From a bacterium (GTDB lineage: Bacteria; JAAXHH01): a stretch of 64,000 bases of DNA. The first letter of the stretch is position 1, and every line of letters begins with the position of its first letter. The position numbers were made by a program, and so were the translations under genes. Of the stretch, positions 38,323-63,813 are shown piece after piece. Where the stretch lies: contig OZ252103.1 of NCBI GenBank assembly GCA_965248395.1, forward strand, positions 1,486,155 to 1,550,154. Direction: 5' to 3'. The notes beneath the pieces are model-generated. The model was not told the origin of the DNA, searched no databases, and saw only the letters and a program-made list of their open reading frames with translations.

Positions 38323-38430
38323 CCTAGGTTGCGTGTATTGCCTGGATCATCGCCGCAGCGATACCGGCTGGATACGGGGTCCGATCAATCGTCCGGCCGG
38401 GTCATTCCTTCGATACCTCATGGATACAAC

Positions 38431-41400: not shown

Positions 41401-43035
41401 TCGGAGTCCGAAGACCGGGACATCACCATCGTTCCGAGGTCGTGGTACTCCGAAGCCGGGATCGGCGCCAAGACCTACGTGAAGGTCGATCACACGAGCA
41501 TGGACGCACCGACCAGGACCACCTTCGCATCGGCCATCCTGGGTGTGCTGCCGGAGGAACGGGAGGTCAGCCATCTCGACCGCGCGCTGACGACGGGGCG
41601 GTGGTTCGCCGGGGACGAAAAGGACGTATGCATCATCCCGTTGGAAATGGCGGAACTCCTGGGCTTGACGGAAGCCGACGTCGGGCGGTCGGAGGTCCTG
41701 ATTTTCGGTAAGCCCTTCAAGGTCATCGGCATGTTCGACGCGGCGGTCCTGGAAGGGATCACCGATCTCGACGGCGAGCCGCTGACACCCGTCGATTACA
41801 CGGCGACGGGTCACGATCTGCTCGCCGAACTCCTCCTCATGGACTACGAAGAGGAACCGGTCGAAATGGCCCGGTTCGAACATATTTCGGCCGCGAATCT
41901 CATCCTGGCGCCGCAGGCCTACGTGAACGACCTTGGCGGAACCCTCCGGTCCGTCGCCGTCCGGTTCCCCACGGACGAGTCCGCCCGGAACCGCATCGAA
42001 CGCTTCATGCAGCGGCTGGGGATTCCCGTGGTGGCTTCCGTCGACGGCGAGGTCGCCGTGTACAGCGCCATGTCCCTGAGTTCGCTGTCGGGACTGGGCA
42101 ACCTGTTCATTCCCATGGTCGTCGCCGCCCTCATCATCCTGAACACCATGATGAACGCCGTCTACGAACGCTTCAGCGAAATCGGGGTTTACAGCGCCGT
42201 GGGACTGGCGCCGGCCCACATCGGCGCCCTCTTCATGGCGGAGGCGGCCATGTACGCCGTCATCGGCGGAATGTCCGGATACCTGATCGGCCAGACCGTG
42301 GCGCGGGGCATTACCGAATACCAGTTGCTGGCGGGACTCACGCTGAACTATTCCTCCCTATCCGCCGTGGCCTCCACGGCCATGGTCATGGCGGTGGTCA
42401 TGCTTTCGACGATCTACCCGGCCCGCAAGGCTTCCCAGATGGCCGTGCCGGATGTCAACAGGCAGTGGTCCTTTCCCGAACCCGACGGCGATGACTGGAG
42501 TTTCGAGTTTCCCTTCACCATCAGCCGCACGGAAACGCTGGGCCTCTGTGCCTACCTGACGCGGTTTTTCGAATCCCACGGCGAAAGCACCCTCGGAAGT
42601 TTCATGACGGACGAGGTGGCCTTGACCGGAGTAAATGGTGAGGGTTCACGCAGCGGCAACGATCCGGTGGATGGTGGTGACGCGGGCGACGGCGGTGACC
42701 TGGTAGTCAACGGCGGCGTGTCCGCGTACGAAATCAGCATGAAGACCTGGCTGGCGCCGTACGACACGGGCGTCAGCCAGCGGGTCACCATGCACGCGTC
42801 GCCCGCGGAGGAGGAACATGGTCTGTACGCGGTGTGGGTGCATATCTACCGCCTGAGCGGCGACGTGGACTCATGGCAGCGCCTGAACCGGCGGTTTTTA
42901 AACGTACTGCGCAAGCAGTTCCTGGTCTGGCGAACCGTGGACCTGGAGGTCAAGAAAGTCTATGCCGACGATGGCCGTGAAATGATCGGTATAGTCACCG
43001 GCGAAACGATAGCACAGGATACAACGGAAGCTTGA
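38431..43035 (+). CDS. giant lipoprotein: PA/M28-like ectodomain (metal ligands apparently substituted) fused to MacB/FtsX-type permease plus unknown C-terminal domain
   Basis: The GTG at 38431 gives (M)IAKRFFPSLLAGLALLFGVSAC, a lipoprotein signal with lipobox VSAC. The track start, TTG at 38329, is less convincing. M28/PA-like region at ~aa 80-520. FtsX module: RKRKARTLLTCTTLVLLVF..., NAVYERFSEIGVYSAVGLAPAHIGALFMAEA, IYPARKASQM. Confidence 0.75.
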   Translation: MIAKRFFPSLLAGLALLFGVSACQTTGVRERVEVLAEPIGDGQVAAVVDSTRIRKTITDLVSFGSRVAGYPGATEAAFYLADRMRDIGLEDVEMEEFVSSVPLDEGGELVILDPTTLESRSIPLYAVWPNLVRTSTTPPGGITGKLHYVGNGEWVDFNDIDPTGAVFMMDFNSGVNWQRAALLGAHAVIFAEPDQTTRIDGEEKHLQVPLDFPRFWMEKEQARPLVEYLNINGPINIRARGRMTWKRLPAYNIFGKITGTHPILKEEVIVLESYYDSMSPVPAVSPGANQAAGTAALLEIARYFVAHPPARTVLILTTSGHFLSLSGVNDFMYRHARKSRYFAQQISEPVNIKLFAGIDLSSARDQVGVIYSGVLFAGDTFEKQRFFTPFGRTFMGYAQEVIQRGAFQPGALVNVISPSQGHRTAGFFPAGNIALDAELAFWTGFPALSFATVFDIREFVDTPIDDIDRVNFRNVYTQTVLLTELFGRGVNDPQLFPDFKMQLEDRFVKGRIRVVEFDPREDYIPSKPRPGAVVRFRRYNKTISGVKNEIFVVADSAGVAESTALEAGRTYPAEGYVMDPDTGDIIYAPDRGPYGEGAYPLEITMDWVDKEKPTVVFRSEATNIYDLVDPRFLTRLNEAVVLDESGNPPLEWGMTFQERGWTTGTTYEEDTAVLFMPPESRFKVTMSTGLFGRRLILTNADESNPEGVGFDSGIGAIPLTSYQVARDMWHLDEARIGALRSVGVSNTRLDDFHQEAGRLLDRAEAARQALQWDRFIKHARAAWGYESRAYPDATGTANDVVKGVLFYMVLVIPYAYALERLLFGFANVYKRISATFGIFLAAYGVLRFTHPAFQITTAPDIVLLAFTTFVLAAVVIWLITGRFSQTMREVRQNTRTVQATDVRRSSALATAFALGIGNMRKRKARTLLTCTTLVLLVFTVLSFTSVQTFLRLQKLSQDTVAEYTGFLVRNPNWAPLQKQTHEYVLSEFGSSESEDRDITIVPRSWYSEAGIGAKTYVKVDHTSMDAPTRTTFASAILGVLPEEREVSHLDRALTTGRWFAGDEKDVCIIPLEMAELLGLTEADVGRSEVLIFGKPFKVIGMFDAAVLEGITDLDGEPLTPVDYTATGHDLLAELLLMDYEEEPVEMARFEHISAANLILAPQAYVNDLGGTLRSVAVRFPTDESARNRIERFMQRLGIPVVASVDGEVAVYSAMSLSSLSGLGNLFIPMVVAALIILNTMMNAVYERFSEIGVYSAVGLAPAHIGALFMAEAAMYAVIGGMSGYLIGQTVARGITEYQLLAGLTLNYSSLSAVASTAMVMAVVMLSTIYPARKASQMAVPDVNRQWSFPEPDGDDWSFEFPFTISRTETLGLCAYLTRFFESHGESTLGSFMTDEVALTGVNGEGSRSGNDPVDGGDAGDGGDLVVNGGVSAYEISMKTWLAPYDTGVSQRVTMHASPAEEEHGLYAVWVHIYRLSGDVDSWQRLNRRFLNVLRKQFLVWRTVDLEVKKVYADDGREMIGIVTGETIAQDTTEA

Positions 43036-43619: not shown

Positions 43620-44000
43620 CTACCAGATCGCCCGCGAATAGAATTCGAGGATGGTGGCGTCCGATGTCACGAGCGGGCAGTTGTGCAACTTGGCCGTGGC
43701 AACGATCGTACAGTCGGCGGGATCCCTGTGATTCCAGTCCAGTTCGAGATTCCCGATCCAGGTCCGCACGTCGACGGGAAGCACTTCCACACGATCAATA
43801 CGTTCCAGGTTTTCGGCGAAGTCCCGAATGGACAAAGGCAGCACGAGCTTGTCTTTTCTAACCTTGATGCCTATCTCCCAGATCGAGATCGAACTGAGGC
43901 AGACGCGGTCGGCATTCGTGATCGCCTGCTCTGCGGTTTGCGTCAGACGTTCAGGATCCAGCGTCCAGAAAACCAGAGTCGACGTATCCAGTAAGACCAT
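43620..44000 (-). CDS. vapC: PIN-domain toxin VapC
   Basis: MVLLDTSTLVF (D5), SISIWEIGIK and DPADCTIVATAKLHNCPLVTSDATI are classic PIN acidic positions. The ATG shares 1 nt with the antitoxin stop (TGATG). Confidence 0.85.
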   Translation of the reverse strand: MVLLDTSTLVFWTLDPERLTQTAEQAITNADRVCLSSISIWEIGIKVRKDKLVLPLSIRDFAENLERIDRVEVLPVDVRTWIGNLELDWNHRDPADCTIVATAKLHNCPLVTSDATILEFYSRAIW

Positions 44001-44442: not shown

Positions 44443-45588
44443 ATGGCTACTAACACCGAAAGATATGCTCCCGGTCGAGTACGAGATGCGATAATTCGGG
44501 TGATGAAACTAACGACAGAAGGTTTGTCTGCCAAACAGATCGCAGCGAGAGTAGCAAAGATAGAGGGCCACATGCCTGAGTCCTCGATCAGGTCATATCT
44601 TCGTCTGAACACTCCGGAGACATTTGTGCGTGAAAGGAGAGGGGTATACCGCCTTAAGGTAGATCATGACAGCAGTCTGCAACGAACGATGTTCAGGAGT
44701 CCAACTTGGCAGAAACCCTTCAAGTTTGGATCGGCCACATTGTTTCACAGTGAATGTTTGGATTGGCTGGATGCAAGGGATGACCAATCAATCCACGCCG
44801 TAGTTACCGATCCGCCTTACGGTCTGCAGGAATACACACCGAAAGAGCAGACGAAACTCCGTAACCGGAAGGGGGGGGTCTGGAGGATTCCTCCTGCATT
44901 CGATGGCCACGTTCGTTCGCCGTTACCAAGATTCACTACTTTAACCGATGAACAAAAACTTTATCTTCGGGAGTTTTTCTACATCTGGTCTCGTCTCCTG
45001 ATCCCTAAGTTGGTTCCGGGCGCCAACGTGGTCGTTGCCTCCAATCCATTACTCTCCCACATTGTCGCCGGCGCTATTGCGGATGCGGGGCTTGAAAGGC
45101 GCGGCGACATCGTCAGGCTTGTTATGACCATGCGGGGCGGTGATCGGCCAAAAGCGGCACATGATGAATTCGAGGACGTCAGTGTGCTCCCCAGATCGAT
45201 GTGGGAGCCATGGCTGCTATTCCGAAGGCCTGTGGAGGGAAGAGTACAGGACAACCTCAGAAAATGGAAAACGGGAGGGTTTCGACGGCCGACTGGACTC
45301 AAGCCATTCGGAGATGTTATTCAATCTTCCCCGACAAGGAAGAATGAGAAGGCGATAGCACCACATCCCAGCCTTAAGCCACAATCCTTCTTACGGCGCC
45401 TCGTGAGGGGCGTTCTTCCACTTGGCGAGGGTATAGTCGTCGATCCCTTTGCCGGCGCTGGCTCTACGCTCGCGGCCGCTGAAGCAGTTGGGTACGAGTC
45501 AATCGGAATAGAAAAGGATTCTCTGTACTTCAACATGGCCAAGGAAGCACTGCAGCCACTAGCCGAGCTTGTGATTCAGCAGCCATAG
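44443..45588 (+). CDS. site-specific DNA methyltransferase (beta-class N6A/N4C) with N-terminal winged-helix domain
   Basis: Motif IV VVTDPPYGLQEY precedes motif I VVDPFAGAGSTLAAAEAVGYESIGIEKD, which is the beta permutation. The N-terminal ~75 aa (VRDAIIRVMK...GLSAKQIAARV...SSIRSYL...RGVYRL) looks like a HARE-HTH/wHTH. Confidence 0.85.
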   Translation: MATNTERYAPGRVRDAIIRVMKLTTEGLSAKQIAARVAKIEGHMPESSIRSYLRLNTPETFVRERRGVYRLKVDHDSSLQRTMFRSPTWQKPFKFGSATLFHSECLDWLDARDDQSIHAVVTDPPYGLQEYTPKEQTKLRNRKGGVWRIPPAFDGHVRSPLPRFTTLTDEQKLYLREFFYIWSRLLIPKLVPGANVVVASNPLLSHIVAGAIADAGLERRGDIVRLVMTMRGGDRPKAAHDEFEDVSVLPRSMWEPWLLFRRPVEGRVQDNLRKWKTGGFRRPTGLKPFGDVIQSSPTRKNEKAIAPHPSLKPQSFLRRLVRGVLPLGEGIVVDPFAGAGSTLAAAEAVGYESIGIEKDSLYFNMAKEALQPLAELVIQQP

Positions 45589-50461: not shown

Positions 50462-52219
50462 TCAAATCTGCCACTCGATCAGTTGCTGGTCCTGTTTCAG
50501 GCGCGCGCGCTGGTGCTGGGCGGCAATGAAGATGTCTTCCAACCTGGGCGTGTCGACTTCGAGCCCCGGCAGGGAGTACAGCGCTTCCATGAAAAACCGG
50601 TCCTCCTGCGGCGATTGGACCCATGCATGCCGCCACCATTCCAGCATGCGGTCTCGAGCGTCGGCCATGGCGCTGGAGGAGGGCAGTCGGTCGCTCTTGC
50701 TGAGGTTGATGTTGTCGCGGGCGGGCAGCAGGTTCCAGAGATCGTTGTTACGCCAGCGCGCCCACGGAAAACAGTGGTCGATGTGCGGAGCGGTTCGAAT
50801 ACGCGCTGCGGACCAGACGCAGGTGAGCGCGAATCCGTCATCGCGCAACTGCTTCGCCCGTTCGAGGGCATTGCTGGTGTCGTAGCGGCTTTCGGTCCAT
50901 TCGAACGGGTCGTTTGTTGCCGTTTCGGTCCCGCATTCCCGGACCAGGGCGGCAGATTGGTCGGTGTTGGTTGTCCACCGCGTAGCGCTGCGCAGGTTTG
51001 CCAAGCCATCCCAATTCGAAGTCAGTTGCCGCCATTCCCGTATGATGACCGGATCCAGCCAGCAGGCGAACTGACCGAGCGCCTGCCATAGCAATGCGGG
51101 AATCCTGAAGCGGCCGAACTGCGTCAGGTATTCGCGCGACAGAACGATGGGCCGGGCGGTCGTCCGCGCCCTGGAATACCCGGATTCGAACAACTGTCGG
51201 TTGCCGGAAGCTGGATATGTGATGTAGCGTACCGGCATCCGCTCGATATTCTCGCAGGCGTCGTTTATGGCGCGGGTAAGGATGACGGCCCGGTCCGAAT
51301 CAAACCTGGCGCCTAGCCGAAGGTCGAAAGGCGAGACGTCCCCAAGACGGTAGAACGCGTCCTTTGCCCAGCCATATCCGCCCGGTCCCGAAGGGCGTTG
51401 CGGCAGTCGATGATGCAGGACCAGGGGCAGGTATTGCTTCAGCCAGTACAGACCGACGGCACCGAAGGGGATTTCCACGTAGTCGTCCGTGCGATTGATG
51501 ACCAGCCCCGGCGCCGTTTCAGCGAGTCGCACCAGGGTCCGAAGCAGCCCCAGCTTGTAGGTCGAAGACTTGTTGTCGTTCACGATCACGTGGCGCAGCA
51601 GCGGCAGGCTGCCGGTGCCATCGTCCGGAATGGCGAAGACCAGCGATTCCCAATGTATGCCGGGGCGCGTCAGGTCCGGCTGCGTCGAGTGGCTGCGCAG
51701 CGCGATGGCTCGGCGGTTGGCAAAACCGATTAGTTCCTCTGCCGAAGTGTCATGAAATCCCCGGGTGGCATTTTCCGCAGCGTCTCCGCCGCGTCGCAGC
51801 GTGAACACCAGCAGTCCGGATGGACTGAGCAGCTCGGAAAGGATGCGGAACGCCCGTTCACGGACCTTCGGCGCCACGTGCATCCACACGGCGCTCAGCA
51901 GAATCAGGTCGAACCGCCGACCGAGCGCGCGCAGAACCCGCAGATCCGGCAGCGCATCGTTCATCCAGACCACGCGTGGATGGGAGCGTTCCGCAGCGAG
52001 GTTCCGCAACGCGCTCGGTTCCACCGCCACGACTTCCCATCCCCTGGCCGCAAGCCAGTTGGCATCGCGTCCCGAACCGGCGCCGATGTCGCAGGCGAAT
52101 CCAGGTTCTTCACGCAGGTGCGCCGGCGCCCAGTCTGCGTGGACGTCGGCAGGGTCGACTCCGTCATACTGGGCGAGGAGGGCATCGGGGTTGAGGTCGT
52201 AGTAGCTGGTGCTGCTCAT
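50462..52219 (-). CDS. fusion protein: class-I SAM-dependent methyltransferase + unknown central domain + HNH nuclease
   Basis: I prefer the ATG at 52219 (MSSTSYYDL...). SAM motif I is FACDIGAGSGRDANWLAARGWEVVAVEPS. The C-terminal HNH motif is APHIDHCFPWARWRNNDLWNLLPARDNINLSKSDR. The ~300-aa middle region is unassigned. Confidence 0.7.
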   Translation of the reverse strand: MSSTSYYDLNPDALLAQYDGVDPADVHADWAPAHLREEPGFACDIGAGSGRDANWLAARGWEVVAVEPSALRNLAAERSHPRVVWMNDALPDLRVLRALGRRFDLILLSAVWMHVAPKVRERAFRILSELLSPSGLLVFTLRRGGDAAENATRGFHDTSAEELIGFANRRAIALRSHSTQPDLTRPGIHWESLVFAIPDDGTGSLPLLRHVIVNDNKSSTYKLGLLRTLVRLAETAPGLVINRTDDYVEIPFGAVGLYWLKQYLPLVLHHRLPQRPSGPGGYGWAKDAFYRLGDVSPFDLRLGARFDSDRAVILTRAINDACENIERMPVRYITYPASGNRQLFESGYSRARTTARPIVLSREYLTQFGRFRIPALLWQALGQFACWLDPVIIREWRQLTSNWDGLANLRSATRWTTNTDQSAALVRECGTETATNDPFEWTESRYDTSNALERAKQLRDDGFALTCVWSAARIRTAPHIDHCFPWARWRNNDLWNLLPARDNINLSKSDRLPSSSAMADARDRMLEWWRHAWVQSPQEDRFFMEALYSLPGLEVDTPRLEDIFIAAQHQRARLKQDQQLIEWQI

Positions 52220-52521
52220 ACGGATAGGCAAGACTGTCGCGTGTAGCCAGGATAGGCCTGGTTGGACTGATTGGCGTTTTCCCGCTTCATGCGGGCGTGC
52301 ATTCATTCTTGCCGGGAATCCTGCGCACGCGCGCACGGTACAGTCGGGAAAACGGTTGAATATCCCATGTCGAAGCCATAATCTATGATCATGCCATTAT
52401 AGTCGGAAGGCGCGAGATGTCAAGCAATCCAATGCGCCTGCCAACCGCGACTGCCGCTAGTGTTTGCCGGCAGCGTTTGCCTGACGTGTCCTGTGTACGC
52501 GCCAGCTGACAGGAGATAACC

Positions 52522-53319
52522 GTGATTTCAAAGCGCATACAACCGGGAGAACGCCTCAACGACGAGCAAATGAAAGAAACGCTCGGCAAGTTCTACCGGG
52601 ACGGGTTCGCCCTGGTGCCCGGGGTGTTGACCGGGGATGAAGTCGGGGCACTTCGCGAGGTCACGGACCGGTGTTTCAACGACCCCGTGCTGGTCGGCAC
52701 CGATTACACGAGCGGGCGGGGGGACGGTTTCGTACTGCGCAACACGCTGGAACTGAACCCGGTGTTCGTGGACATGCTGATCCGGGAACCCATACTGAGT
52801 CTGGCGGAGGCGATCGTGGGGACGGACTGCAAGTTCTGTGGCCAGAACGTGATCCGCAACGCGCCGGGCCAGGCCATATCGCGGTGGCACGTGGACGACC
52901 GGGTGGAGTTCCCGCTGCCGGACGACGTGCCCCGTCACGATCCCCGCGTCCGCATGCCGGTGCAGTGGTTCACCATCCAGATGGCCCTGACCGATATCGA
53001 CACGGAAGAGGACGGACCGACGCAGTTTGTCCCGGGCAGCCACTACTCGGGGCGGGAACCCAATAGCCAGGAACAACCCGAATTCGAAGGCAGGGGACCG
53101 GTTTCAGCCCTTTGCAAAGCGGGAGATATCTACCTGCAGAACAACCAGTGCTGGCACCGCGGGGGGCCCGTAACCTCGAACCGGACGCGTTACGTGTTTC
53201 AATCCCAGTACGCCGCCCTCTGGGCCTACAGGCGGTTCTCGGAGTATAACCAAGTGCCCGTGCCGCCCACGGTGCTCAGTCGGGCCTCCGACAGGTTGCG
53301 CGGGGTGCTGGGCGTGTGA
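52522..53319 (+). CDS. PhyH-family Fe(II)/2OG dioxygenase
   Basis: FYRDGFALVPG, WHVDD (HxD), FVPGSH, CWHRGG. GTG start after AGGAGA. Confidence 0.8.
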   Translation: MISKRIQPGERLNDEQMKETLGKFYRDGFALVPGVLTGDEVGALREVTDRCFNDPVLVGTDYTSGRGDGFVLRNTLELNPVFVDMLIREPILSLAEAIVGTDCKFCGQNVIRNAPGQAISRWHVDDRVEFPLPDDVPRHDPRVRMPVQWFTIQMALTDIDTEEDGPTQFVPGSHYSGREPNSQEQPEFEGRGPVSALCKAGDIYLQNNQCWHRGGPVTSNRTRYVFQSQYAALWAYRRFSEYNQVPVPPTVLSRASDRLRGVLGV

Positions 53320-56637: not shown

Positions 56638-57453
56638 CTATCGCCCGGCCAGATCGTCGCCCAGGTCTGCAGCGTCCACTTTACCCTTTTCCAGGCTCAC
56701 GCCCACGACAAAAAGCTCCAGGTCCTCGTCCATGTGGTTGAAGATCCCGTGGGCGCTCCCGATTAGGTTGGGAACGGCGTCCCCGCGCACCACTTCCTCG
56801 GTCTCGTCGTTCACCGTCATCCGGCCCCGGCCGTTCATGATCATGTAGGCTTCCTCCACGAGATCGTGCCGATGATAGCCCACGGAAGTGCCGGACGGCA
56901 GCAGGATGTGGCAAAGGTATTCGAAATTGGTCTGGAAATCCCGACTTCCCCACACCTCCCGGAACAGTACCTCGCCCCGGCCCTCATGGTGCCGGATCGG
57001 TCTGAGCAGGGAGCGGTCGAACCGGCCCACGGGCAGGCGGTCGGTGGACTCCAGGACGACGTCTCTGCGCGGGTCGTCGAAATCCTCGTGCTTCGGTTCG
57101 CGGACCGTATCTACGCAGTGAAAATTGAAGAACCAGGTGTCCTGGTCCGTGTGGTTGTAAATGCCGTGGGACTCTCCAGATCTCAGGGGTACCGCTGCGC
57201 CGCCTACGACTTCGGCCGTGCGGCCGTTGTGGGTGAACTGCATGGCGTTGTCGATACTGACGAAGATCTCTTCCGCGTAGGTGTGGCTGTGTTCGCCGAT
57301 GCCGCTGCCGGGCGGGAAGATCACGGAATGGATGAACCCCCAGGGCGACTGGAACGCGCGACTGTCGAATCCGGGATTGAAATGGCTTGCCGCGGCGCCG
57401 CCATGGCTCACGCCCAATCTCATTTCCTCGCGCCTGGTGTGGGAAATCAACAT
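56638..57453 (-). CDS. bicupin protein
   Basis: Two cupin cores (GIGEHSHTYAEEIFVS...GESHGIYN; SVGYHRHDLVEEAYMIMNG...GSAHGIFN). Confidence 0.65.
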   Translation of the reverse strand: MLISHTRREEMRLGVSHGGAAASHFNPGFDSRAFQSPWGFIHSVIFPPGSGIGEHSHTYAEEIFVSIDNAMQFTHNGRTAEVVGGAAVPLRSGESHGIYNHTDQDTWFFNFHCVDTVREPKHEDFDDPRRDVVLESTDRLPVGRFDRSLLRPIRHHEGRGEVLFREVWGSRDFQTNFEYLCHILLPSGTSVGYHRHDLVEEAYMIMNGRGRMTVNDETEEVVRGDAVPNLIGSAHGIFNHMDEDLELFVVGVSLEKGKVDAADLGDDLAGR

Positions 57454-57525
57454 GTGGTCCGCCTGGTTTGCTCGGCCTCCGGCACCTTGGAATTTGTATC
57501 GATCCGAGGGATAACCGGTCAGTGC

Positions 57526-58326
57526 TTAAAGGGTGACTTCCTCTACGGCCTGCGTACCAGTCTCGTAAGCGGGCCGCCACCGGTCGTGGACCATGGACTC
57601 TTCCTCGGTCAGACCGCACAGCCAGTTCCAGGTGTGGATACGGCGCCTCGTGTCCCGGTAGGATTCCACGCCGCTCGTGTAGGGAGCGGCCGGGCGATCC
57701 CGGTACCCGGGGATTGCTTCCGAATCGATCAGCCAGTCGCGGCGCGGCGGCGTATTTCGGAAGTAGGAGAATTTAACCATGCTGCGGGGTCTGTGATTGA
57801 GCTTCGGACCGGCCCTGTGCCAGATGCCGTACCGGGTAATGGCCACGGTGCCTGCCTTCACGACAAGCGAAAGCTGGCCCGTAAGATCGCCGTAGTGGGC
57901 CAAGGCGTCGCGGTTGACCGCCCGGCAGTGGGAACCGGGCAGGATCATGGTTGGGCCGTCTTCGATCCCCACGTCCTGCGGATAGTAGTAGCACTGGAGT
58001 TCGTTGATCTCGTAACCATGACCGGATATACCGTCCGAATGCCAGTCCTGTCCCGCGACCGGCTCGTTCATGAGGTGGTGATGGCCCCCCGTCGGCATCA
58101 GGAAATTGGGACCGAGCAGCGAACGTATCACGCCCGCCAACCGGGGATGGAGCAGGACTTCGCGGACGAAATCGGGAGAACCGACCAGTTCCTTCGCGGG
58201 GCCTACCTTGACGTTGCGGCACCGCGCGTTGAAATCGGGATCCACCAAGCCTTCGAGCACTGCGTATCCTTTCGCCACGAAATCCATCACGTCCTCGTCG
58301 GTCATCGTCGGTCTGATCTCCGCCAT
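57526..58326 (-). CDS. PhyH-family Fe(II)/2OG dioxygenase
   Basis: GYAVLEG, WHSDG (HxD), ILPGSH, IWHRAG. GAGGAGG RBS. Confidence 0.8.
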   Translation of the reverse strand: MAEIRPTMTDEDVMDFVAKGYAVLEGLVDPDFNARCRNVKVGPAKELVGSPDFVREVLLHPRLAGVIRSLLGPNFLMPTGGHHHLMNEPVAGQDWHSDGISGHGYEINELQCYYYPQDVGIEDGPTMILPGSHCRAVNRDALAHYGDLTGQLSLVVKAGTVAITRYGIWHRAGPKLNHRPRSMVKFSYFRNTPPRRDWLIDSEAIPGYRDRPAAPYTSGVESYRDTRRRIHTWNWLCGLTEEESMVHDRWRPAYETGTQAVEEVTL

Positions 58327-58338
58327 CGCAGCGCCTCC

Positions 58339-58701
58339 TCAGTTCCACTTCTCGAGTATGAAATCGAAACCCACGTAGTCGTTTTCAAGATCATTGTATT
58401 CGTAAAGCTTGGGGATAGGGTACTGCACCACGCGCCACCCTTCGGCAACGGCCTCCAGCACGGAGTCGTAAGGCGGCTCGTCGCCCGGCAGCCTGAGTTC
58501 TGGCCCCTCGCCTGGGACGAACACCGCCCAACCGACGATCCCGGACCGCATATTGGTCGACCGGGCAGTCAGGTACATGATCTTCGGTCGGGGCGGATTT
58601 ACCACCAGGGCCTCAAGTTTATCAAGGTCCCGCGCATCCAGTTCGCCATCTTCAAGTTTCTTACGGCTTTCGGCTATCCATTGCCTGATTTCCGATTGCA
58701 T
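58339..58701 (-). CDS. hypothetical protein (120 aa), first gene of the oxygenase operon
   Basis: Coding-like composition, 12-nt gap to the next gene, no motif recognised. Confidence 0.5.
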   Translation of the reverse strand: MQSEIRQWIAESRKKLEDGELDARDLDKLEALVVNPPRPKIMYLTARSTNMRSGIVGWAVFVPGEGPELRLPGDEPPYDSVLEAVAEGWRVVQYPIPKLYEYNDLENDYVGFDFILEKWN

Positions 58702-58782
58702 ATCACAAGCCCTTGTATATCAGCGTAGTGCCCGGTACCTACGAGTGTAAAGGGTGCGGAGGGTTCGGTGTGCCTGACCGGG

Positions 58783-58812
58783 ATTGTACAGGCGAAACGG
58801 ACACGTTGTCAA
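58783..58812 (-). promoter_or_regulatory. putative promoter of the minus-strand oxygenase operon
   Basis: Minus strand reads TTGACA(58812-58807)-N18-TACAAT(58788-58783). Confidence 0.4.
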
Positions 58813-58860
58813 GCATGATCGAAGTTTGCCCGCTACCGGAATCCGGCATCCGCGGCAGGC

Positions 58861-58889
58861 TTGACAGCAGCGCCGCGGCCCCATATGTT
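58861..58889 (+). promoter_or_regulatory. putative promoter of the divergent PhyH gene
   Basis: TTGACA(58861-58866)-N17-TATGTT(58884-58889). Confidence 0.4.
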
Positions 58890-58923
58890 CCATGGAACTG
58901 AACACGGATTCCAGGATGGCCCA

Positions 58924-59673
58924 ATGTCCGATTTGAAACCCTTGAACGCCCAGCAGATCGCACACTTCAAGCTGAACGGCTACCTGGTGCTGAAGAACGT
59001 GTTCGACGCAGAGACCATCGAGGCCTGGCGGCGGCAGATCTGGCGGAAACTGAACAGTTCCCTGGAGGAACCCGATACCTGGCCCAGGGAAACGAGCGGT
59101 CTCGACGGGTACGAATACGATCCGCCCGAATCGGCCCTTGTGCATCACCCGTGCATGATGGCGATCATCGACCAGCTCAGCGGGGGACACTTCGTAGCCG
59201 GCGATGGCATTCCGATCATTCGGTGGCCCGATCCCGGTAAATCATGGGAAGTGCCCATCACGGGGCATATCGACGCCTACGGGGGACGCTGGCTGCCCTT
59301 CATGATCGGCGCGACCACCTACCTGTACGACGTGGAGCCCGGCGGCGGCGCTCTCATCTACTGGCCGGGAAGCCACCACGCCGCCCACCGGTATTTCCTT
59401 GAGAATCCCTCCCATGTCGATGGGAGCTTCCTGCAGATCGAGGGTTTTTCCTGGGACGTATTTTGTGACAACCCGGCTACCGGCGGCCGGGAGTTTACCG
59501 CGCAGGCCGGCGACGTGGTGCTCTGGCATTCCTACCTGACCCACAACGGATCGGAGAACACCAGCACTTTGCCGCGCTTCGCCCTGTTCGCCCGCTGGAA
59601 CCACGAGAAACACCTGGAGCAGTCCTTCCGATACGAGATTCCCGAGGATCTGTGGAAGTACTGGGCGGTGTGA
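58924..59673 (+). CDS. PhyH-family Fe(II)/2OG dioxygenase
   Basis: NGYLVLKN, GHIDAYG (HxD), YWPGSH, LTHNGS. I prefer the ATG at 58924 over the track start at 58861. Confidence 0.8.
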   Translation: MSDLKPLNAQQIAHFKLNGYLVLKNVFDAETIEAWRRQIWRKLNSSLEEPDTWPRETSGLDGYEYDPPESALVHHPCMMAIIDQLSGGHFVAGDGIPIIRWPDPGKSWEVPITGHIDAYGGRWLPFMIGATTYLYDVEPGGGALIYWPGSHHAAHRYFLENPSHVDGSFLQIEGFSWDVFCDNPATGGREFTAQAGDVVLWHSYLTHNGSENTSTLPRFALFARWNHEKHLEQSFRYEIPEDLWKYWAV

Positions 59674-59771
59674 GCGGGCTAATACCGTGCATGACAAGGG
59701 AATTTCAGAATCTCAAGTTCAAGGTTGTGAACTGTTTCGAATGTTAGTGTTAAGGCGTTATAGGTGAATCC

Positions 59772-61172
59772 ATGAAAGTACGTAAGCTAATTGTCGAGGA
59801 TGTTCGGTGTTTCGCGGGCCGTCAGGAGTTTAACATCCGACCGCTGACCTTCCTGACTGGAGAGAACAGTACTGGTAAAACAACTGTCTTGGGTTCACTA
59901 CAAACGTTGCACGATTTTTTTCGAGGTGCTCCTTCCGGGCTAAACTTCAATTCCGATCCATATCAGATGGGTACTTTTACAAACATAGTTAGAAGATCGA
60001 AGCCCAGGATTCATAGGTTTAAAATCGGTTTTGAAGCGTATTTCACCGAAACAAGTAACGCAGTAGAGTATACACTTACGTTATCAGAGCGAGAAGACGG
60101 CGTTGAGCCGTGTATTGTGAAGCAGGAGGTCTTTACACCAGTTGGCGAGATAGAATTCTCTGGAATAAACAACGAAGAATTCATCAGCCAAACACGGTCG
60201 GAATGGGATTCACCTTTGACATCACGAATGAGAATCAAGGAAGGAAACTCAGAATCTGGAGAATATGACAGGTTTTACTTAAATGTGTCAGATAATTGGT
60301 TACAGTCAGCATTACTATCATTGTTAACTAGATTTAAGACTGGTGTCGATATCAACAGGATTGTATCCGAGAAAGAACCCATAGAAAGTTCTAGATTGCA
60401 AGATGAAGTAGCTTTTGGAAAATTCACAGAACAGTTTACAGATCTGGTCGGATTTGGGACGTACGAAAAACCCAAAAGAATCCGTATTGAACCTCCATGG
60501 ATTTATAGTTTTGCGCCGCTTCGGTCCAAACCACAGCGGACCTACAACCCATTGCGTGAAGACTTATTTCCGGATGGCAGTGACGTGCCAATGATTATGA
60601 TGAATTTGGCGAGAGTAAGAGAGGATATATGGGAATCACTCAGAAGTAGATTAAAGGAATTTGGGAAATCATCCGGATTGTTTACGGATGTTGATGTAAG
60701 AAAACTCGGAGCATCATCGGGTGATCCATTTCAGTTACAGGTAAAGGTAAGGGGCCCTAAGGTTAACATTATTGATGTAGGCTATGGAGTAAATCAGATA
60801 CTACCGATTCTTGTACATATCTTAACAGATCAGGACAACACGGTATTCTTGATGCAACAACCTGAAGTACACTTGCATCCTAAAGCTCAAGCTGAGTTGT
60901 CTTCATTAATCGTTAATTTAATTGAACAAAATGGGAACGAGTTTATTCTTGAAACTCACAGCGATCACATGATAAACCGTGCACGTATCGAAATTATGAA
61001 CCAAAGAATCGCAGCTGAAGATGTCGCACTTATATACTTTGAACCGGTTGGGAACACCGTGAATGTTCACAACATAGCATTTGATGATCAGGCTAATTTG
61101 CTAAATGTACCCAAAGGCTATAGGGATTTTTTCATCAATGAATCGGATAAGCTGCTCGGCTTAGCCAAGTGA
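59772..61172 (+). CDS. ABC-type AAA ATPase (AAA_15/AAA_21-like with DUF3696-like C-terminus)
   Basis: Walker A in FLTGENSTGKTT. C-terminal GYGVNQILPIL, VFLMQQPEVHLHP (Walker B/D-loop) and ILETHSDHMINR (H-loop). Markedly low GC. Confidence 0.85.
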   Translation: MKVRKLIVEDVRCFAGRQEFNIRPLTFLTGENSTGKTTVLGSLQTLHDFFRGAPSGLNFNSDPYQMGTFTNIVRRSKPRIHRFKIGFEAYFTETSNAVEYTLTLSEREDGVEPCIVKQEVFTPVGEIEFSGINNEEFISQTRSEWDSPLTSRMRIKEGNSESGEYDRFYLNVSDNWLQSALLSLLTRFKTGVDINRIVSEKEPIESSRLQDEVAFGKFTEQFTDLVGFGTYEKPKRIRIEPPWIYSFAPLRSKPQRTYNPLREDLFPDGSDVPMIMMNLARVREDIWESLRSRLKEFGKSSGLFTDVDVRKLGASSGDPFQLQVKVRGPKVNIIDVGYGVNQILPILVHILTDQDNTVFLMQQPEVHLHPKAQAELSSLIVNLIEQNGNEFILETHSDHMINRARIEIMNQRIAAEDVALIYFEPVGNTVNVHNIAFDDQANLLNVPKGYRDFFINESDKLLGLAK

Positions 61173-61182
61173 AAGTGGAGAC

Positions 61183-61584
61183 ATGTGTCTTATTTTGGAC
61201 GCCAATAAGTTTAGTGACTACGTAAATCCCGATGATTTAGATATGGAACCAGTAAGAAGGTGGATGAAAAACAGTGGCAAAATGGTTTACTCACCAACAG
61301 AGAAACTAAAGCAGGAATTAGAACGGCACGATAGGATGCGACAGCAGTTTGATCAATACCGCCAAAACGGTAGACTTAGACAAATTCCGGCGCAAGAAGT
61401 TGAAGTGGTTAAAACTAAGATACCCCGGCTGCAGTCTGACGACCCGGATATTATCGCGCTGGCCTGTGTGGCGGGAGTTAAACTGTTAGTTTCAGGTGAT
61501 ACTGACCTGCATGCGGACTTCAAATCAGTTGTTGGAGGGAGCGTGTATCAAACCAGAAACGAGTCTGTAACATGTTTTGTGTAA
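61183..61584 (+). CDS. PIN-like (DUF4411-like) small protein; native C-terminus replaced by IS insertion
   Basis: LILDANKF (D6) and SDDPDIIALACVAGVKLLVSGDTDL (D86-89, D106/D108). GGAG lies in the 10-nt gap after the ATPase stop. The last 8 codons (ESVTCFV*) lie inside the IS left inverted repeat. Confidence 0.65.
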   Translation: MCLILDANKFSDYVNPDDLDMEPVRRWMKNSGKMVYSPTEKLKQELERHDRMRQQFDQYRQNGRLRQIPAQEVEVVKTKIPRLQSDDPDIIALACVAGVKLLVSGDTDLHADFKSVVGGSVYQTRNESVTCFV

Positions 61585-62893
61585 CTGGCAATAGCCTGTA
61601 TCTTGCTCAAAAGGAGGAAGTGCTATGGCCAGAGAAAGAAAACCCCCAGGTAAGATCGACCGTCTTCTCGATGAACTTATGGAAGACGGGGTGGACGCCG
61701 AGGACCTGTTCGGCGAAGACGGCCTGCTCAAGCGCATGAAGAAGCGCATGGCCGAGCGGATCCTGGAAGCCGAGCTCACCGATCATCTCGGCTACGAGAA
61801 GCATGCCCCCGATGGCAGGAACCGCGGCAACAGTCGCAACGGCAAGACCACCAAGACGCTCAAGGACGACAAGGGCGCTCTGCCGGTAGAGATCCCCCGG
61901 GACCGCGAAGGCAGCTTCGATCCGAAGTTGATCCGCAAGTACCAGACGCGTTGGCCCGACTTCGACGACAAGATCATCTCCATGTACGCAAGGGGCATGA
62001 GCACCCGGGATATCCAGGGCCATATCGAAGACCTCTACGGGGTGTCCATCTCGCCCGAATTGGTCTCGCGGATCACCGACGCCGTGACCGACGAGGCCCT
62101 GGCCTGGCAGTCGCGGCCCCTGGATGAGATCTACCCGATCCTGTTCCTGGATGCCCTGTTCGTCAAGATACGTGATAGCGGCAGCGTACGGAACAAGGCG
62201 GTCTACCTGGCCCTGGGCGTTAACCTGCGCGGCGACAAGGAACTCCTGGGGCTCTGGATCGAGCAGAACGAAGGGGCAAAGTTCTGGCTCCACGTACTGA
62301 CCGAACTGAAGAACCGGGGCGTTGCCGATATCTTCATCGCCTGTTGCGACGGCCTCACCGGCTTCCCCCAGGCCATAGAGACGGTGTACCCCAAGGCCCA
62401 GGTGCAGCTCTGCATCGTCCACATGGTGCGTAACAGCCTGACCTACGTCTCCTGGAAGGACCGTAAGCAGGTGGCCAAGGATCTCCGGGCGATATACCAG
62501 GCCGCTACCTTGGAGCAGGCTGAGGCCGCGCTTTATCGCTTTGCCGAACACTGGGATAAGCAATATCCCACGATCAGCCGGCTATGGCGCAGACACTGGG
62601 ACCATCTGACCCCGTTCTTCGCCTTCCCACAGGAGATCAGGAAGGTCATCTACACTACGAATGCCATCGAATCCATGAACCGGGGCCTGCGCAAGATCAT
62701 CAAGACCAGAGGCGCTTTCCCCACGGACGAGGCGGCCAGGAAACTGCTCTATCTGGCCCTGCTCAATCTGTCCCGAAGGTGGACCCGGCCCCTTGTCCAC
62801 TGGACAGCCGCAATCAACCAGTTCATCATCATGTACGAAGACAGAGTGCCCATCACATGAAACTGTCAGTTACACAAAATCCGTGACAGACCC
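61561..62893 (+). mobile_element. IS256-family insertion sequence, intact (1333 bp)
   Basis: Terminal inverted repeats are GAGTCTGTAACATGTTTTGTGTAACTGGCA (61561-61590) and the reverse complement of 62864-62893, GGGTCTGTCACGGATTTTGTGTAACTGACA. They match at 24/30 positions. The 8-bp direct target duplication CCAGAAAC lies at 61553-61560 and 62894-62901. Confidence 0.9.
61625..62860 (+). CDS. IS256-family (Mutator-type) transposase
   Basis: 411 aa. ELTDHLGYEKH, NSRNGKTTKTL, SFDPKLIRKYQ, MYARGMSTRDI, LFLDALFVKIR, CCDGLTGF, CIVHMVRNS and YTTNAIES are hallmark IS256 transposase blocks. Confidence 0.95.
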   Translation: MARERKPPGKIDRLLDELMEDGVDAEDLFGEDGLLKRMKKRMAERILEAELTDHLGYEKHAPDGRNRGNSRNGKTTKTLKDDKGALPVEIPRDREGSFDPKLIRKYQTRWPDFDDKIISMYARGMSTRDIQGHIEDLYGVSISPELVSRITDAVTDEALAWQSRPLDEIYPILFLDALFVKIRDSGSVRNKAVYLALGVNLRGDKELLGLWIEQNEGAKFWLHVLTELKNRGVADIFIACCDGLTGFPQAIETVYPKAQVQLCIVHMVRNSLTYVSWKDRKQVAKDLRAIYQAATLEQAEAALYRFAEHWDKQYPTISRLWRRHWDHLTPFFAFPQEIRKVIYTTNAIESMNRGLRKIIKTRGAFPTDEAARKLLYLALLNLSRRWTRPLVHWTAAINQFIIMYEDRVPIT

Positions 62894-62985
62894 CCAGAAA
62901 CCACAGACGCCTATTAAGACCGGACACCTGCCCCTGAATCCTAAATCGAACATAATCTGAATTCCAACTGAGCTATCATTCCTTC

Positions 62986-63813
62986 ATGCATCGAACCCCC
63001 CGTTACCTCAACGAAGATCAACTGGAGCAATTCTGGTCCGACGGCTACCTGGTGCTGAAAGGCACCTTGGACGCCGCTACCGTGGAAACCGCCCGCAACG
63101 CCATTCTCGACCTGATCCCGCGCGACCTTTCCCTGCCGGACCATTATATCGCGTACTGCGGCAGGATCAAGCCCATGCACACCGACGGAAACCACAGTTT
63201 CTACAGTCCGGCGCTGCTTCCCCTGCTTCAGAACGAAGGGCTCTACCGGGCCGCGGCCGATATCCTCGAGACCGACAATATCCGGGTCGGTGACGGCTCC
63301 GTGGGGATTACCCTGCGGGATACGGGGCGCGAAGGGCGCATTCAGAACCTGCACCTGGACGCGCGGCCGGCAGGACCGGCGGATCTGAACCTTCCATTCC
63401 TTCGCCACGGGATCGGCATTGGCGGCTGTTACTACCTTTCCCCCGTCGAAGAAAACGGCGGCGGCATCCACGTGGTACCCGGCGCGCCGAACAGGGTAAG
63501 GGACATAATGCTCAACGAACCGGACGGACTGTCGCGCAACGACACCTGGACCCATATCGTCGATTTTCCGCCGTCGGTGGAGGTCAAAGGGGACGCGGGC
63601 GACTTCGTGCTCATGCACCACCTGATGCCCCACGCCGCCAGCGCCAATCACCGCAGTGTGCCCAGGGTCGCCTATTTCACCCGCCTGTATCCCCTGGCGG
63701 ACGAAGAGGCCGCGGCAGCCCCGGGACCCGACCGGTCGATGAGCTCCGAGGCACTGGCCATGCTGACGCCGCTGGGCCGCAAGTTGTTCCGTATGGATCC
63801 CTGGATCGAGTAA
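62986..63813 (+). CDS. PhyH-family Fe(II)/2OG dioxygenase
   Basis: DGYLVLKG, LHLDAR (HxD), VVPGAP, MPHAAS. Confidence 0.75.
   Translation: MHRTPRYLNEDQLEQFWSDGYLVLKGTLDAATVETARNAILDLIPRDLSLPDHYIAYCGRIKPMHTDGNHSFYSPALLPLLQNEGLYRAAADILETDNIRVGDGSVGITLRDTGREGRIQNLHLDARPAGPADLNLPFLRHGIGIGGCYYLSPVEENGGGIHVVPGAPNRVRDIMLNEPDGLSRNDTWTHIVDFPPSVEVKGDAGDFVLMHHLMPHAASANHRSVPRVAYFTRLYPLADEEAAAAPGPDRSMSSEALAMLTPLGRKLFRMDPWIE

What the first reader, a model, noticed from the sequence alone, without database searches (positions are those of the whole stretch)
59690..61584. Low-GC two-gene cassette: ABC-type AAA ATPase + stand-alone PIN-like protein (candidate undescribed defence/abortive-infection module)
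Seen in sequence: gene 1 (59772..61172, 466 aa) has Walker A in the FLTGENSTGKTT context. A ~300-aa insert follows, then GYGVNQILPIL, VFLMQQPEVHLHP and ILETHSDHMINR. This is the split ABC/SMC-RecF-like ATPase layout (AAA_15/AAA_21 with a DUF3696-like end). Gene 2 starts 10 nt later with GGAG in the gap (61183..61584, 133 aa). It carries PIN-type acidic positions: LILDANKF, then SDDPDIIALACVAGVKLLVSGDTDL. G+C drops sharply here. I counted 21/60 and 17/60 in the lines starting at 60301 and 60901, versus 33/60 at 59401 and about 60% in most of the window. The cassette sits between two PhyH paralogs and abuts an IS256 element, so it looks horizontally acquired. Established knowledge: ATPases of this type are the sensor subunits of Septu (with HNH), PARIS (with TOPRIM/DUF4435) and OLD/Gabija (TOPRIM). 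Inference: the same logic applies here with a PIN effector. I do not know a named system with this pairing. Two other nuclease-bearing loci lie within 17 kb (vapC/MTase at 43.6 kb and MTase-HNH at 50.5 kb).
Basis: partly seen in the sequence, partly recalled or inferred. Interest (0 to 1): 0.85.

Follow-up and report, generated by a model that had tools for sequence, protein, structure and literature searches.

The report
ABC ATPase plus PIN nuclease pair
This is a horizontally mobile two-gene cassette, an ABC-type ATPase followed by a small PIN-fold nuclease, that belongs to a class already shown to protect bacteria from phages (HEC-03), but it is a separate, unannotated family, and the copy in this window has lost the end of its nuclease gene to an insertion sequence.

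Summary
A low-GC island (about 0.40 against 0.62) carries a 466-aa ABC ATPase (59772..61172) and, 10 nt later, a small PIN-fold protein (61183..). The PIN assignment rests on an AlphaFold model (pLDDT 95) whose best PDB matches are all PIN domains, on Pfam PIN hits for three family members, and on conserved D6/E45/D87/D106.

The pair is a real conserved module. In 79 of 79 testable loci from species-representative genomes of more than ten phyla, the ATPase lies directly upstream of the PIN gene. No third gene recurs.

The claim that the pairing is undescribed is wrong. HEC-03 (Payne et al. 2024) is an ABC ATPase plus PIN system that needs both genes for phage defence. The Menshen ATPase NsnB is the closest profile match. 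This family is nevertheless distinct: HEC-03's PIN model misses it, and Pfam DUF3696 is absent.

An IS256-family element (61561..62893, 8-bp duplication) removed the last 11 conserved PIN codons, so this copy is probably disabled. Against a near-identical relative, the ATPase C-terminal tail plus PIN were swapped as one block.

Verdict: a new variant of a known kind, of moderate interest.

The parts
59677..62985 (.). Low-GC foreign island (cassette plus the IS inserted in it) between two host PhyH genes
   Evidence: GC is 0.37-0.47 against about 0.62 in the flanks. The same island without the IS lies between the same PhyH genes in close relatives L001-L004.
59772..61172 (+). ABC-type ATPase, 466 aa (NsnB-like clade)
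   Evidence: Pfam AAA_21 7.6e-23 and AAA_15 6.1e-20. PADLOC NsnB 2.2e-47, PDC-M55A 7e-37, HEC-03 ATPase model 5.4e-26. AF2 model pTM 0.80, with best PDB matches PtuA, Rad50, SMC and GajA heads.
59859..59885 (+). Walker A, GENSTGKTT (residues 30-38)
   Evidence: G-E-N-S-x-G-K is invariant in 62 family members.
60039..60521 (+). Hypervariable insert region of the ATPase (about residues 90-250); inferred sensor surface
   Evidence: Identity is 13-40% here in pairs whose ATPase ends and PIN are 80-100% identical (WIN-L008, L054-L055, L066-L067). The AF2 model has low-confidence segments here.
60774..60788 (+). Signature-motif equivalent, D-V-G-Y-G (residues 335-339)
   Evidence: D335, G337, Y338 and G339 are invariant in 62 of 62 members and V336 is present in 59 of 62. 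It is GxG rather than SGG, as reported for NsnB.
60849..60866 (+). Non-canonical Walker B, L-M-Q-Q-P-E (residues 360-365): QQ where ABC ATPases have D-E
   Evidence: Q362 in 62 of 62 and Q363 in 60 of 62 members; E365 invariant. HEC-03 has EQ at the same place. NsnB has EN.
60951..60965 (+). H-loop, E-T-H-S-D (residues 394-398)
   Evidence: Nearly invariant.
60984..61169 (+). ATPase C-terminal tail (residues 405-466: helix, beta-hairpin, helix), co-transferred with the PIN gene; inferred PIN-docking element
   Evidence: Identity to L001 drops abruptly from about 100% to about 68% at about 60985 and stays low through the PIN gene. The tail travels with PIN in other pairs. pLDDT is 87-95 over residues 401-450, then 76 and 61 for the last two blocks. 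The equivalent NsnB C-terminus is predicted to clamp the PIN-like domain of NsnC.
61183..61560 (+). PIN-fold nuclease gene, native codons 1-126
   Evidence: AF2 pLDDT 95, with top PDB matches all PIN domains (Nmd4, VapC2, VapC15, PAE0151, VapC4; prob 0.97-0.99, TM 0.47-0.58). Family members P0097, P0082 and P0090 pass the Pfam PIN gathering score. D6, E45, D87, D106 and D112 are conserved.
61561..61584 (+). IS-encoded replacement tail of the PIN ORF (ESVTCFV, then stop)
   Evidence: The reading frame runs into the left IS end.
61561..62893 (+). IS256-family insertion sequence, 1333 bp (transposase 61625..62860)
   Evidence: Transposase_mut 1.3e-128. Terminal inverted repeats and an 8-bp duplication, CCAGAAAC, at 61553-61560 and 62894-62901.
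62902..62937 (+). Displaced native 3' end of the PIN gene (HRRLLRPDTCP, then stop)
   Evidence: It is in frame once the IS and one duplication copy are removed. It matches the conserved C-terminus H127, L130, L131, C136, P137 of the family.
58861..59673 (+). Upstream host gene, PhyH family (not part of the system)
   Evidence: Pfam PhyH 1.6e-14. GC is host-like.
62986..63813 (+). Downstream host gene, PhyH family (not part of the system)
   Evidence: Pfam PhyH 1.5e-08.

Best explanation
This is a self-contained two-gene immune or abortive-infection cassette of the 'ABC ATPase sensor plus nuclease effector' class.

Proposed mechanism (inferred, not shown here):
- The ATPase oligomerises through its ABC heads.
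- It holds the PIN nuclease inactive through its C-terminal tail.
- Its hypervariable insert (about residues 90-250) recognises a phage-derived trigger.
- Nucleotide-dependent rearrangement then frees or activates the PIN domain.
- The PIN domain cleaves RNA and stops growth of the infected cell.

Because Walker B is QQ throughout the family, the ATPase probably works as an ATP-binding switch rather than a fast hydrolase.

In this window the system is probably disabled. An IS256-family element removed the last 11 codons of the PIN gene, including invariant residues.

Shown: the fold assignments, the conserved residues, the obligate gene pairing, the compositional foreignness, the mosaic recombination and the IS disruption. 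Inferred: the defence function, RNA as the target, tail-PIN docking, the sensor role of the insert and switch-type ATP use.
For: 1. Pairing. In 79 of 80 loci from species-representative genomes of more than 10 phyla, the ATPase ends 5-25 nt upstream of the PIN gene on the same strand. The one exception is cut by a contig end. The same holds for a distant member from the exhaustive search and in L005-L007 and L089.

2. No third partner. The nearest neighbours of 78 loci are heterogeneous and mostly metabolic, with a minority of R-M or mobile genes: N6_N4_Mtase 5, ResIII 7, Methylase_S 2, TnsA 5.

3. Precedent. HEC-03 is an ABC ATPase plus PIN system with the same gene order. It reduces plaquing in E. 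coli, needs both genes, and is toxic when induced.

4. ATPase homology. hhalign gives 99.2% probability to the HEC-03 ATPase over residues 238-400. The best PADLOC hit is NsnB at 2.2e-47. The family shares the reported NsnB deviations: Walker B without DE, Q-loop replaced by R, and a GxG signature.

5. PIN is probably catalytic. D6, E45, D87 and D106 are conserved. The fold matches VapC-type PINs. Pfam PIN is passed by three members.

6. Arms-race signature. The cassette is lower in GC than its flanks in 78 of 79 loci. It shows block-wise recombination, with a variable insert and a swappable tail-plus-PIN block.

7. Tail as docking site. AlphaFold 3 models of 23 of 24 Menshen systems place the NsnB C-terminal domains around the PIN-like domain.

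8. Possible sign of a costly effector. Two independent IS256 insertions hit the last 11 PIN codons in two genomes. ATPase genes appear broken in several loci.
Against: - No experiment exists for this family. The defence role rests on analogy with a distant relative.
- The window PIN gets no hit from any Pfam, PADLOC or NCBIfam model. hhalign to the HEC-03 PIN gives only 38.6% probability over 37 columns.
- Foldseek E-values for the PIN model are weak (5e-3 at best; TM 0.47-0.58).
- Most loci are not in recognisable defence islands.
- The family was not found in phage, plasmid or viral-contig collections.
- Over all pairs, tail-PIN covariation is no stronger than body-PIN covariation (partial r 0.50 against 0.48). 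In addition, the tail is physically next to PIN, so co-transfer is partly expected from linkage alone.
- QQ in Walker B might mean the protein does not use ATP in the usual way at all.
Confidence: 0.6

Rival explanations
1. This is a toxin-antitoxin or addiction module with no dedicated immune role. The PIN protein is a VapC-like toxin. The ATPase is simply its proteinaceous antitoxin or chaperone, and the pair persists selfishly as mobile DNA.
For: The PIN fold is closest to VapC toxins. The operon is tightly coupled and occurs at many unrelated chromosomal sites with low GC. HEC-03 is toxic on induction. Repeated IS or frameshift inactivation suggests a toxic load.
Against: The upstream partner is a 466-aa ABC ATPase with an invariant Walker A and H-loop and a hypervariable insert. 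It is not a small DNA-binding antitoxin of the VapB kind. The nearest validated relative gives phage protection that needs both genes. TA behaviour and abortive-infection defence are not mutually exclusive.
Confidence: 0.2
2. This is an accessory or regulatory module of restriction-modification or Hma-type systems, not an autonomous system. The ATPase-PIN pair would work only together with a neighbouring methylase and helicase/nuclease.
For: In the Entotheonella and Binatia-type loci the pair sits between an N6_N4 methylase (plus a 136-aa protein) and a ResIII helicase. N6_N4_Mtase, ResIII and Methylase_S recur among the neighbours. HEC-03 itself was found embedded in Hma systems.
Against: Only about 10-15% of the 78 loci have such neighbours. 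In the window and its relatives the flanks are PhyH metabolic genes. HEC-03 works when cloned without its host system.
Confidence: 0.07
3. This is a decayed remnant or housekeeping RNA-processing pair of no special significance in this genome.
For: The PIN gene in the window is truncated by an IS. Several homologous loci carry broken ATPase genes.
Against: IS-free, intact copies exist in the closest relatives at the same locus. Catalytic and nucleotide-binding residues are conserved across more than 60 diverged members. The distribution is patchy and compositionally foreign, unlike housekeeping genes.
Confidence: 0.05

Closest known systems
HEC-03 (Hma-embedded candidate 03; Pseudomonas cichorii WP_025259138.1 + WP_025259137.1; Payne et al., bioRxiv 10.1101/2024.01.29.577857)
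   Same: Two-gene operon with the ABC ATPase first and a small stand-alone PIN protein second. The ATPase core is homologous (hhalign 99.2% over residues 238-400; shared DVG[FY]GV.Q.LP, QPE.HLHP and E[ST]HS motifs; Walker B lacks the canonical D-E). The C-terminal half of the PIN shows the same D..[IF][IL]A[LV]A...G.K....DTD pattern.
   Different: The ATPases share only 26% identity over 185 residues, and the N-terminal half and inserts do not align. The HEC-03 PIN model gives no hit to the window protein and reaches about 1e-3 in only 2 of 53 family members. Pfam DUF3696 is absent here in 0 of 62 members, whereas the HEC-03 ATPase is annotated as DUF3696-containing. The PIN here has an MCLILD start and an H..LL..D.CP end not seen in HEC-03. 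No experimental data exist for this family.
Menshen (NsnA-NsnB-NsnC; Millman et al. 2022; Li et al. NAR 2025, PMC12065111)
   Same: The best profile match of the ATPase is NsnB (2.2e-47, aligned to the C-terminus). The ATPase shows the same three motif deviations: Walker B without DE, an arginine in place of the Q-loop glutamine, and a GxG signature. The partner protein has a PIN-type fold. There is block-wise polymorphism of the effector side.
   Different: There is no NsnA (ParB/DUF262) gene in the window or as a recurrent neighbour. The partner is a 137-aa stand-alone PIN with D-E-D-D conserved. It is not an inactive PIN fused to a C-terminal toxin domain.
PARIS (AriA/AriB), Septu (PtuA/PtuB), Gabija (GajA/GajB)
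   Same: ABC ATPase of the AAA_15/AAA_21 type paired with, or fused to, a nuclease. Weaker PADLOC hits are AriA 1.5e-21, PtuA 1.8e-08 and GajA about 1e-09. PtuA and GajA structures are among the best fold matches. The proposed hold-and-release logic follows these systems.
   Different: Their effectors are TOPRIM/DUF4435 or HNH, not PIN. Their ATPase inserts and C-termini differ. Their Walker B motifs are canonical (own knowledge).
VapBC type II toxin-antitoxin systems
   Same: The small protein has a VapC-like PIN fold with four acidic positions.
   Different: There is no VapB-type antitoxin. The upstream gene is a 466-aa ATPase. Sequence similarity to VapC is below detection, including to the window's own VapC at 43620..44000.

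Membership tests
HEC-03 | Two-gene operon: ABC ATPase followed by a stand-alone PIN-domain protein | tested here: met
   ORFs are 10 nt apart on the same strand. ABC fold. PIN fold. Same gene order as WP_025259138.1 and WP_025259137.1.
HEC-03 | ATPase recognised by the HEC-03 ATPase profile over its length | tested here: inconclusive
   PADLOC PDLC04148 gives 5.4e-26, but only over residues 294-450, and it is outranked by NsnB and PDC-M55A. BLASTP gives 26% identity over 185 aa. hhalign gives 99.2% over 238-400 only.
HEC-03 | PIN protein recognised by the HEC-03 PIN profile | tested here: not met
   No hit for the window protein even at E<=10. Only 2 of 53 family members hit, at about 1e-3. 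hhalign gives 38.6% probability over 37 columns.
HEC-03 | Pfam DUF3696 at the ATPase C-terminus | tested here: not met
   0 of 62 family members hit DUF3696 at E<=1.
HEC-03 | Both genes required for phage defence | not testable with these tools
   This needs cloning and plaque assays.
Menshen | NsnA (ParB-DUF262 + ParBDB) gene upstream of the ATPase | tested here: not met
   The upstream gene in the window is a PhyH gene. DUF262 is not among the recurrent families in 78 upstream neighbours.
Menshen | NsnB-type ABC ATPase | tested here: met
   PADLOC NsnB 2.2e-47. The motif deviations are shared.
Menshen | NsnC: inactive PIN-like N-domain fused to a C-terminal toxin domain | tested here: not met
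   The partner is 137 aa and a single domain, with D6, E45, D87 and D106 conserved.
PIN domain superfamily | PIN fold (Rossmann-like alpha/beta/alpha) | tested here: met
   AF2 pLDDT 95. The top 19 Foldseek PDB matches are PIN domains, prob up to 0.99, TM 0.47-0.58.
PIN domain superfamily | Four conserved acidic active-site residues (D-E-D-D) | tested here: met
   D6 and E45 are at least 90% conserved, D87 is invariant and D106 is at least 90% conserved in 53 sequences. The positions match Pfam PIN alignments of members P0097 and P0082, which span residues 4-115. Catalysis itself was not tested.
PIN domain superfamily | Passes the Pfam PIN (PF01850) gathering score | tested here: inconclusive
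   The window protein gets no hit. Family members pass: P0097 at 37.5 bits, P0082 at 30.2 and P0090 at 27.0, against a cut-off of 23.6.
VapBC type II TA | Small VapB-type antitoxin gene immediately upstream of the PIN toxin | tested here: not met
   The upstream gene is a 466-aa ABC ATPase.
PARIS / Septu / Gabija | TOPRIM (DUF4435) or HNH effector | tested here: not met
   The effector is PIN-fold. There are no AriB, PtuB or GajB hits.
IS256 family | Mutator-type DDE transposase, terminal inverted repeats and an 8-9 bp target duplication | tested here: met
   Transposase_mut 1.3e-128. Inverted repeats. 8-bp CCAGAAAC duplication.

The most novel reading that the evidence does not exclude
The family may be a distinct, so far unannotated branch of ABC-ATPase/PIN immunity (about 1,700 clusters at 50% identity), concentrated in sponge symbionts and other uncultured bacteria. 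On this reading it has four features. First, the ATPase is a hydrolysis-poor, ATP-binding switch, since Walker B is invariantly QQ. Second, specificity is set by a hypervariable insert. Third, the effector unit (ATPase C-terminal tail plus PIN) is exchanged as a cassette between strains. Fourth, the PIN carries a conserved Cys/His set (C2, H110, H127, C136) that may tie its termini together, so that clipping the last 11 codons, as the IS has done twice, switches it off. It could also represent the two-gene ancestor-like state from which Menshen's NsnB-NsnC(inPIN) module derived.
Probability: 0.35. Interest if true: 0.5.

Novelty: new variant of a known kind. Interest (0 to 1): 0.35.

Why it matters
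Current detection profiles miss this family. PADLOC v2 finds only the ATPase and files it nearest to Menshen's NsnB, so these cassettes go uncounted in defence censuses of sponge symbionts and other uncultured lineages.

The family links two described systems. It has the architecture of HEC-03 and the ATPase of Menshen. It may therefore show how an active PIN effector became the inactive PIN adaptor of NsnC.

The invariant QQ Walker B gives a natural test of whether these sensor ATPases need hydrolysis or only nucleotide binding.

The clean recombination breakpoint after the H-loop defines an experimentally swappable effector unit.

None of this changes the basic picture of ABC-ATPase-nuclease immunity, so the gain is incremental.

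Tried and rejected
- Pfam, NCBIfam and PADLOC scans of the window PIN protein, even at E<=10: nothing usable.
- Profile of the PIN family against PDB sequences: no hit.
The fold assignment therefore rests on Foldseek and on Pfam hits of family members.
- Search for the PIN family in IMG/VR viral contigs, INPHARED phages and PLSDB plasmids: none found. There is therefore no evidence that phages or plasmids carry it.
- Flanking direct or inverted repeats that would mark an integrating element around the IS-free cassette: none.
- Promoter and terminator scan: no more sites than in shuffled sequence.
- Membership of Menshen: rejected (no NsnA; the partner is not an inPIN-toxin fusion).
- Membership of VapBC: rejected (no VapB).
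- A global covariation test of whether the ATPase tail tracks PIN better than the ATPase body does: not discriminating (partial r 0.50 against 0.48). Only individual recombinant pairs support the tail-plus-PIN unit.
- What PDC-M55 pairs with its ATPase could not be established. The supplement lists only family codes.
Full report
**1. Observation**

They are 10 nt apart, with GGAG before the second start. GC drops to 0.37-0.45 between 59700 and 61500, against about 0.60-0.64 on either side. The flanking genes are PhyH-family, and the next gene is a Mutator/IS256-type transposase (Transposase_mut 1.3e-128).

The IS is not merely adjacent to the cassette. It is a 1333-bp element (61561..62893) with imperfect terminal inverted repeats and an 8-bp target duplication, CCAGAAAC (61553-61560 and 62894-62901). 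It is inserted after codon 126 of the second gene. Removing it restores a 137-aa protein ending HRRLLRPDTCP, with the displaced codons at 62902..62937. Homologues of 137 aa align over 100% of that reconstruction.

**2. What the proteins are**

*Gene 1.* It matches AAA_21 (7.6e-23) and AAA_15 (6.1e-20).
- In PADLOC-DB the best hits are NsnB of Menshen (2.2e-47), PDC-M55A (7e-37), the HEC-03 ATPase model (5.4e-26, residues 294-450 only) and AriA (1.5e-21).
- An AlphaFold model (pTM 0.80) matches the ABC heads of PtuA (retron/Septu), Rad50, SMC and GajA.
- Across 62 family members, Walker A (GENSxGK[TS]) and the H-loop are invariant.
- Three motifs deviate from the norm. The Walker B acids are replaced by an invariant QQ (LxQQPE). 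An invariant arginine occupies the Q-loop position. The signature motif is DVGYG.
- Li et al. report the same three kinds of deviation for NsnB.
- Pfam DUF3696 is not detected in any of 62 members. The PADLOC NsnB profile nevertheless aligns to residue 462.

*Gene 2.* It has no hit in Pfam, NCBIfam or PADLOC, even at E<=10. The PIN assignment rests on other evidence:
- Three family members pass the Pfam PIN gathering score, the best being P0097 at 4e-09.
- An AlphaFold model built on 53 homologues has pLDDT 95.
- The top 19 PDB matches of that model are all PIN domains (Nmd4, VapC2, VapC15, PAE0151, VapC4, Utp24/Fcf1). Probabilities reach 0.99, although TM-scores are modest (0.47-0.58) and E-values weak.
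- D6, E45, D87 (invariant) and D106 are conserved at the expected PIN positions.
- So are C2, H110, D112, Y122, H127, L130, L131, C136 and P137.

The IS therefore removes five conserved residues. The copy in this window is probably inactive or deregulated (inference).

**3. Is the pair a real module?**

A scan of one genome per species found 141 relatives of the small protein, and the best 80 loci were kept.
- In 79 of the 80, the ATPase homologue lies directly upstream on the same strand, ending 5-25 nt before the PIN start. The one exception is cut by a contig end.
- The hosts include Poribacteria, Latescibacterota, Binatia, Entotheonella, Gammaproteobacteria, Bacteroidota, Bdellovibrionota, Chloroflexota, Nitrospirota, Acidobacteriota, Planctomycetota, Verrucomicrobiota and Armatimonadota. 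Many are sponge-associated MAGs.
- An exhaustive profile search found 1,677 cluster representatives at E<=1e-3 and 909 at E<=1e-10. Nearly all listed matches are stand-alone proteins of 130-150 aa.
- A distant representative that I checked also has the ATPase 14 nt upstream.
- No third gene recurs. The nearest neighbours of 78 loci are mostly metabolic. A minority are R-M or mobile genes: N6_N4_Mtase 5, ResIII 7, Methylase_S 2, DUF559 3, TnsA-like 5.
- In the Entotheonella-type locus the pair is embedded between a DNA methylase and a ResIII helicase.
- The cassette is lower in GC than its flanks in 78 of 79 loci, with a median difference of -0.09.
- The family was not found in IMG/VR, INPHARED or PLSDB.

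**4. Mosaic evolution**

Close relatives (L001-L004) carry the IS-free cassette at the same place between the same PhyH genes. Several further species (L008-L012, L018) keep at least one of the same flanks. The acquisition therefore predates these species.

Window and L001 are 99-100% identical from about 57230 to 60980. Identity then drops abruptly to 57-71% from about 60985 (ATPase codon about 405, just after the H-loop). It stays low through the PIN gene to about 63060, and then returns to 90-95%. The ATPase C-terminal tail and the PIN gene were therefore replaced as one block.

Other pairs show the converse pattern:

| Pair | ATPase body | Tail | PIN |
|---|---|---|---|
| WIN-L008 | 53% | 79% | 82% |
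| L054-L055 | 59% | 95% | 92% |
| L066-L067 | 55% | 87% | 88% |

In these pairs the divergence is concentrated in residues about 90-250. In some pairs (L012-L018, L045-L059) the break lies nearer the gene boundary.

A global partial-correlation test did not separate tail from body (0.50 against 0.48). The tail-plus-PIN unit is therefore supported by individual recombinants, not by a statistical law. Physical linkage contributes as well.

**5. Mechanism**

The best-supported model is an ABC-ATPase sensor that restrains a PIN nuclease and releases or activates it on infection. The supports are:
- HEC-03 has the same architecture and needs both genes for defence.
- AlphaFold 3 models of Menshen show two NsnB C-terminal domains clamping the PIN-like domain of NsnC in 23 of 24 systems. 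This fits the co-transfer of tail and PIN seen here.
- The variable insert is a candidate specificity determinant.
- The PIN acids are conserved.

In other ABC ATPases, replacing the Walker B glutamate with glutamine gives ATP-bound, hydrolysis-deficient heads (established knowledge). EQ-mutant SMC heads are among the structural matches. The invariant QQ therefore suggests a binding switch rather than a motor (inference).

None of these steps has been tested for this family.

**6. Comparison with known systems**

HEC-03 from Pseudomonas cichorii (WP_025259138.1 plus WP_025259137.1) is an ABC ATPase followed by a PIN protein. It is active against phages, toxic when induced, and included in PADLOC-DB.

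The window family is nevertheless a different family:
- The ATPases share 26% identity over the C-terminal core only.
- The PIN profiles barely recognise each other.
- DUF3696 is absent.

It is not Menshen either. There is no NsnA, and the partner is a stand-alone PIN with catalytic residues intact rather than an inactive-PIN-toxin fusion. It is not VapBC, because there is no VapB.

**7. Verdict**

This is a new sequence family, that is, a variant, within the known ABC-ATPase plus PIN class. Its noteworthy features are an NsnB-like degenerate ATPase, cassette-like exchange of the effector unit, and an IS-disrupted copy in this window. Interest is moderate to low (0.35).

Noticed in passing
L010:8396-9728 (MAG CBDBLQ010000002.1): A 90%-identical copy of the same 1333-bp IS256-family element is inserted independently in the 3' end of that genome's PIN gene. 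It sits after codon 132 with its own 8-bp duplication, CTGTTAAG, 18 nt from the window's site. Two separate hits within the last 11 codons suggest either a target preference or selection for clipping the PIN C-terminus.
   Followed up: partly
window 60985 and ~63060 (versus L001): There are sharp recombination breakpoints. Identity is about 100% upstream of 60985 and 57-71% from 60985 to about 63060. The diverged stretch covers the ATPase tail, the PIN gene, the intergenic region and the first ~25 codons of the downstream PhyH gene. Identity is 90-95% beyond that.
   Followed up: yes
L027, L016, L031, L051, L070, L072, L076 (ATPase region ~6600-8000): The ATPase homologue gives split or partial tblastn matches in several genomes. 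Examples are a ~2.2-kb interruption in L027 and a frame change near residue 359 in L016. This suggests frequent decay of the cassette. The inserted DNA was not examined.
   Followed up: no
L005:4314-11145 (also L006, L007, L014; Candidatus Entotheonella MAG): Here the pair is embedded in a methylase - 136-aa protein - ATPase - PIN - ResIII helicase array with DUF6602 upstream. This resembles the Hma or type III R-M embedding in which HEC-03 was discovered. The 136-aa protein has no Pfam hit.
   Followed up: partly
window 43620..44000 (-), 44443..45588 (+), 50462..52336 (-): The window also holds a canonical VapC-type PIN (Pfam 5e-20), an N6_N4 DNA methylase and a methyltransferase-HNH fusion. 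They are interspersed with metabolic genes (molybdopterin oxidoreductase, amidohydrolase, UxuA-like), so this is a loose scatter rather than a dense defence island.
   Followed up: partly
window 52522..53319, 57526..58326 (-), 58861..59673, 62986..63813: There are four PhyH-family dioxygenase paralogues within 12 kb. The syntenic relatives also carry cupin, MR_MLE, sulfatase and DUF6785 genes. This is a metabolic gene cluster of the kind seen in the related sponge-associated MAG loci.
   Followed up: no
window 58339..58701 (-): A 120-aa ORF with no Pfam hit is conserved as a called gene at the same position in L001-L004.
   Followed up: no
P0323 (327 aa, from the representative search): The ATPase N-terminus, including Walker A, is fused directly to a PIN domain. 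It looks like a deletion derivative of the two-gene cassette.
   Followed up: no
PIN family alignment A1: 7 of 53 members give weak PADLOC hits (best 1.2e-4) to PDC-M11A, a 486-position profile, over its positions ~35-126. An untested PADLOC candidate may therefore carry a related N-terminal PIN-like domain.
   Followed up: no
window 38329..43035 (+): A very long ORF (1568 aa) lies just upstream of the VapC locus. It was not analysed.
   Followed up: no
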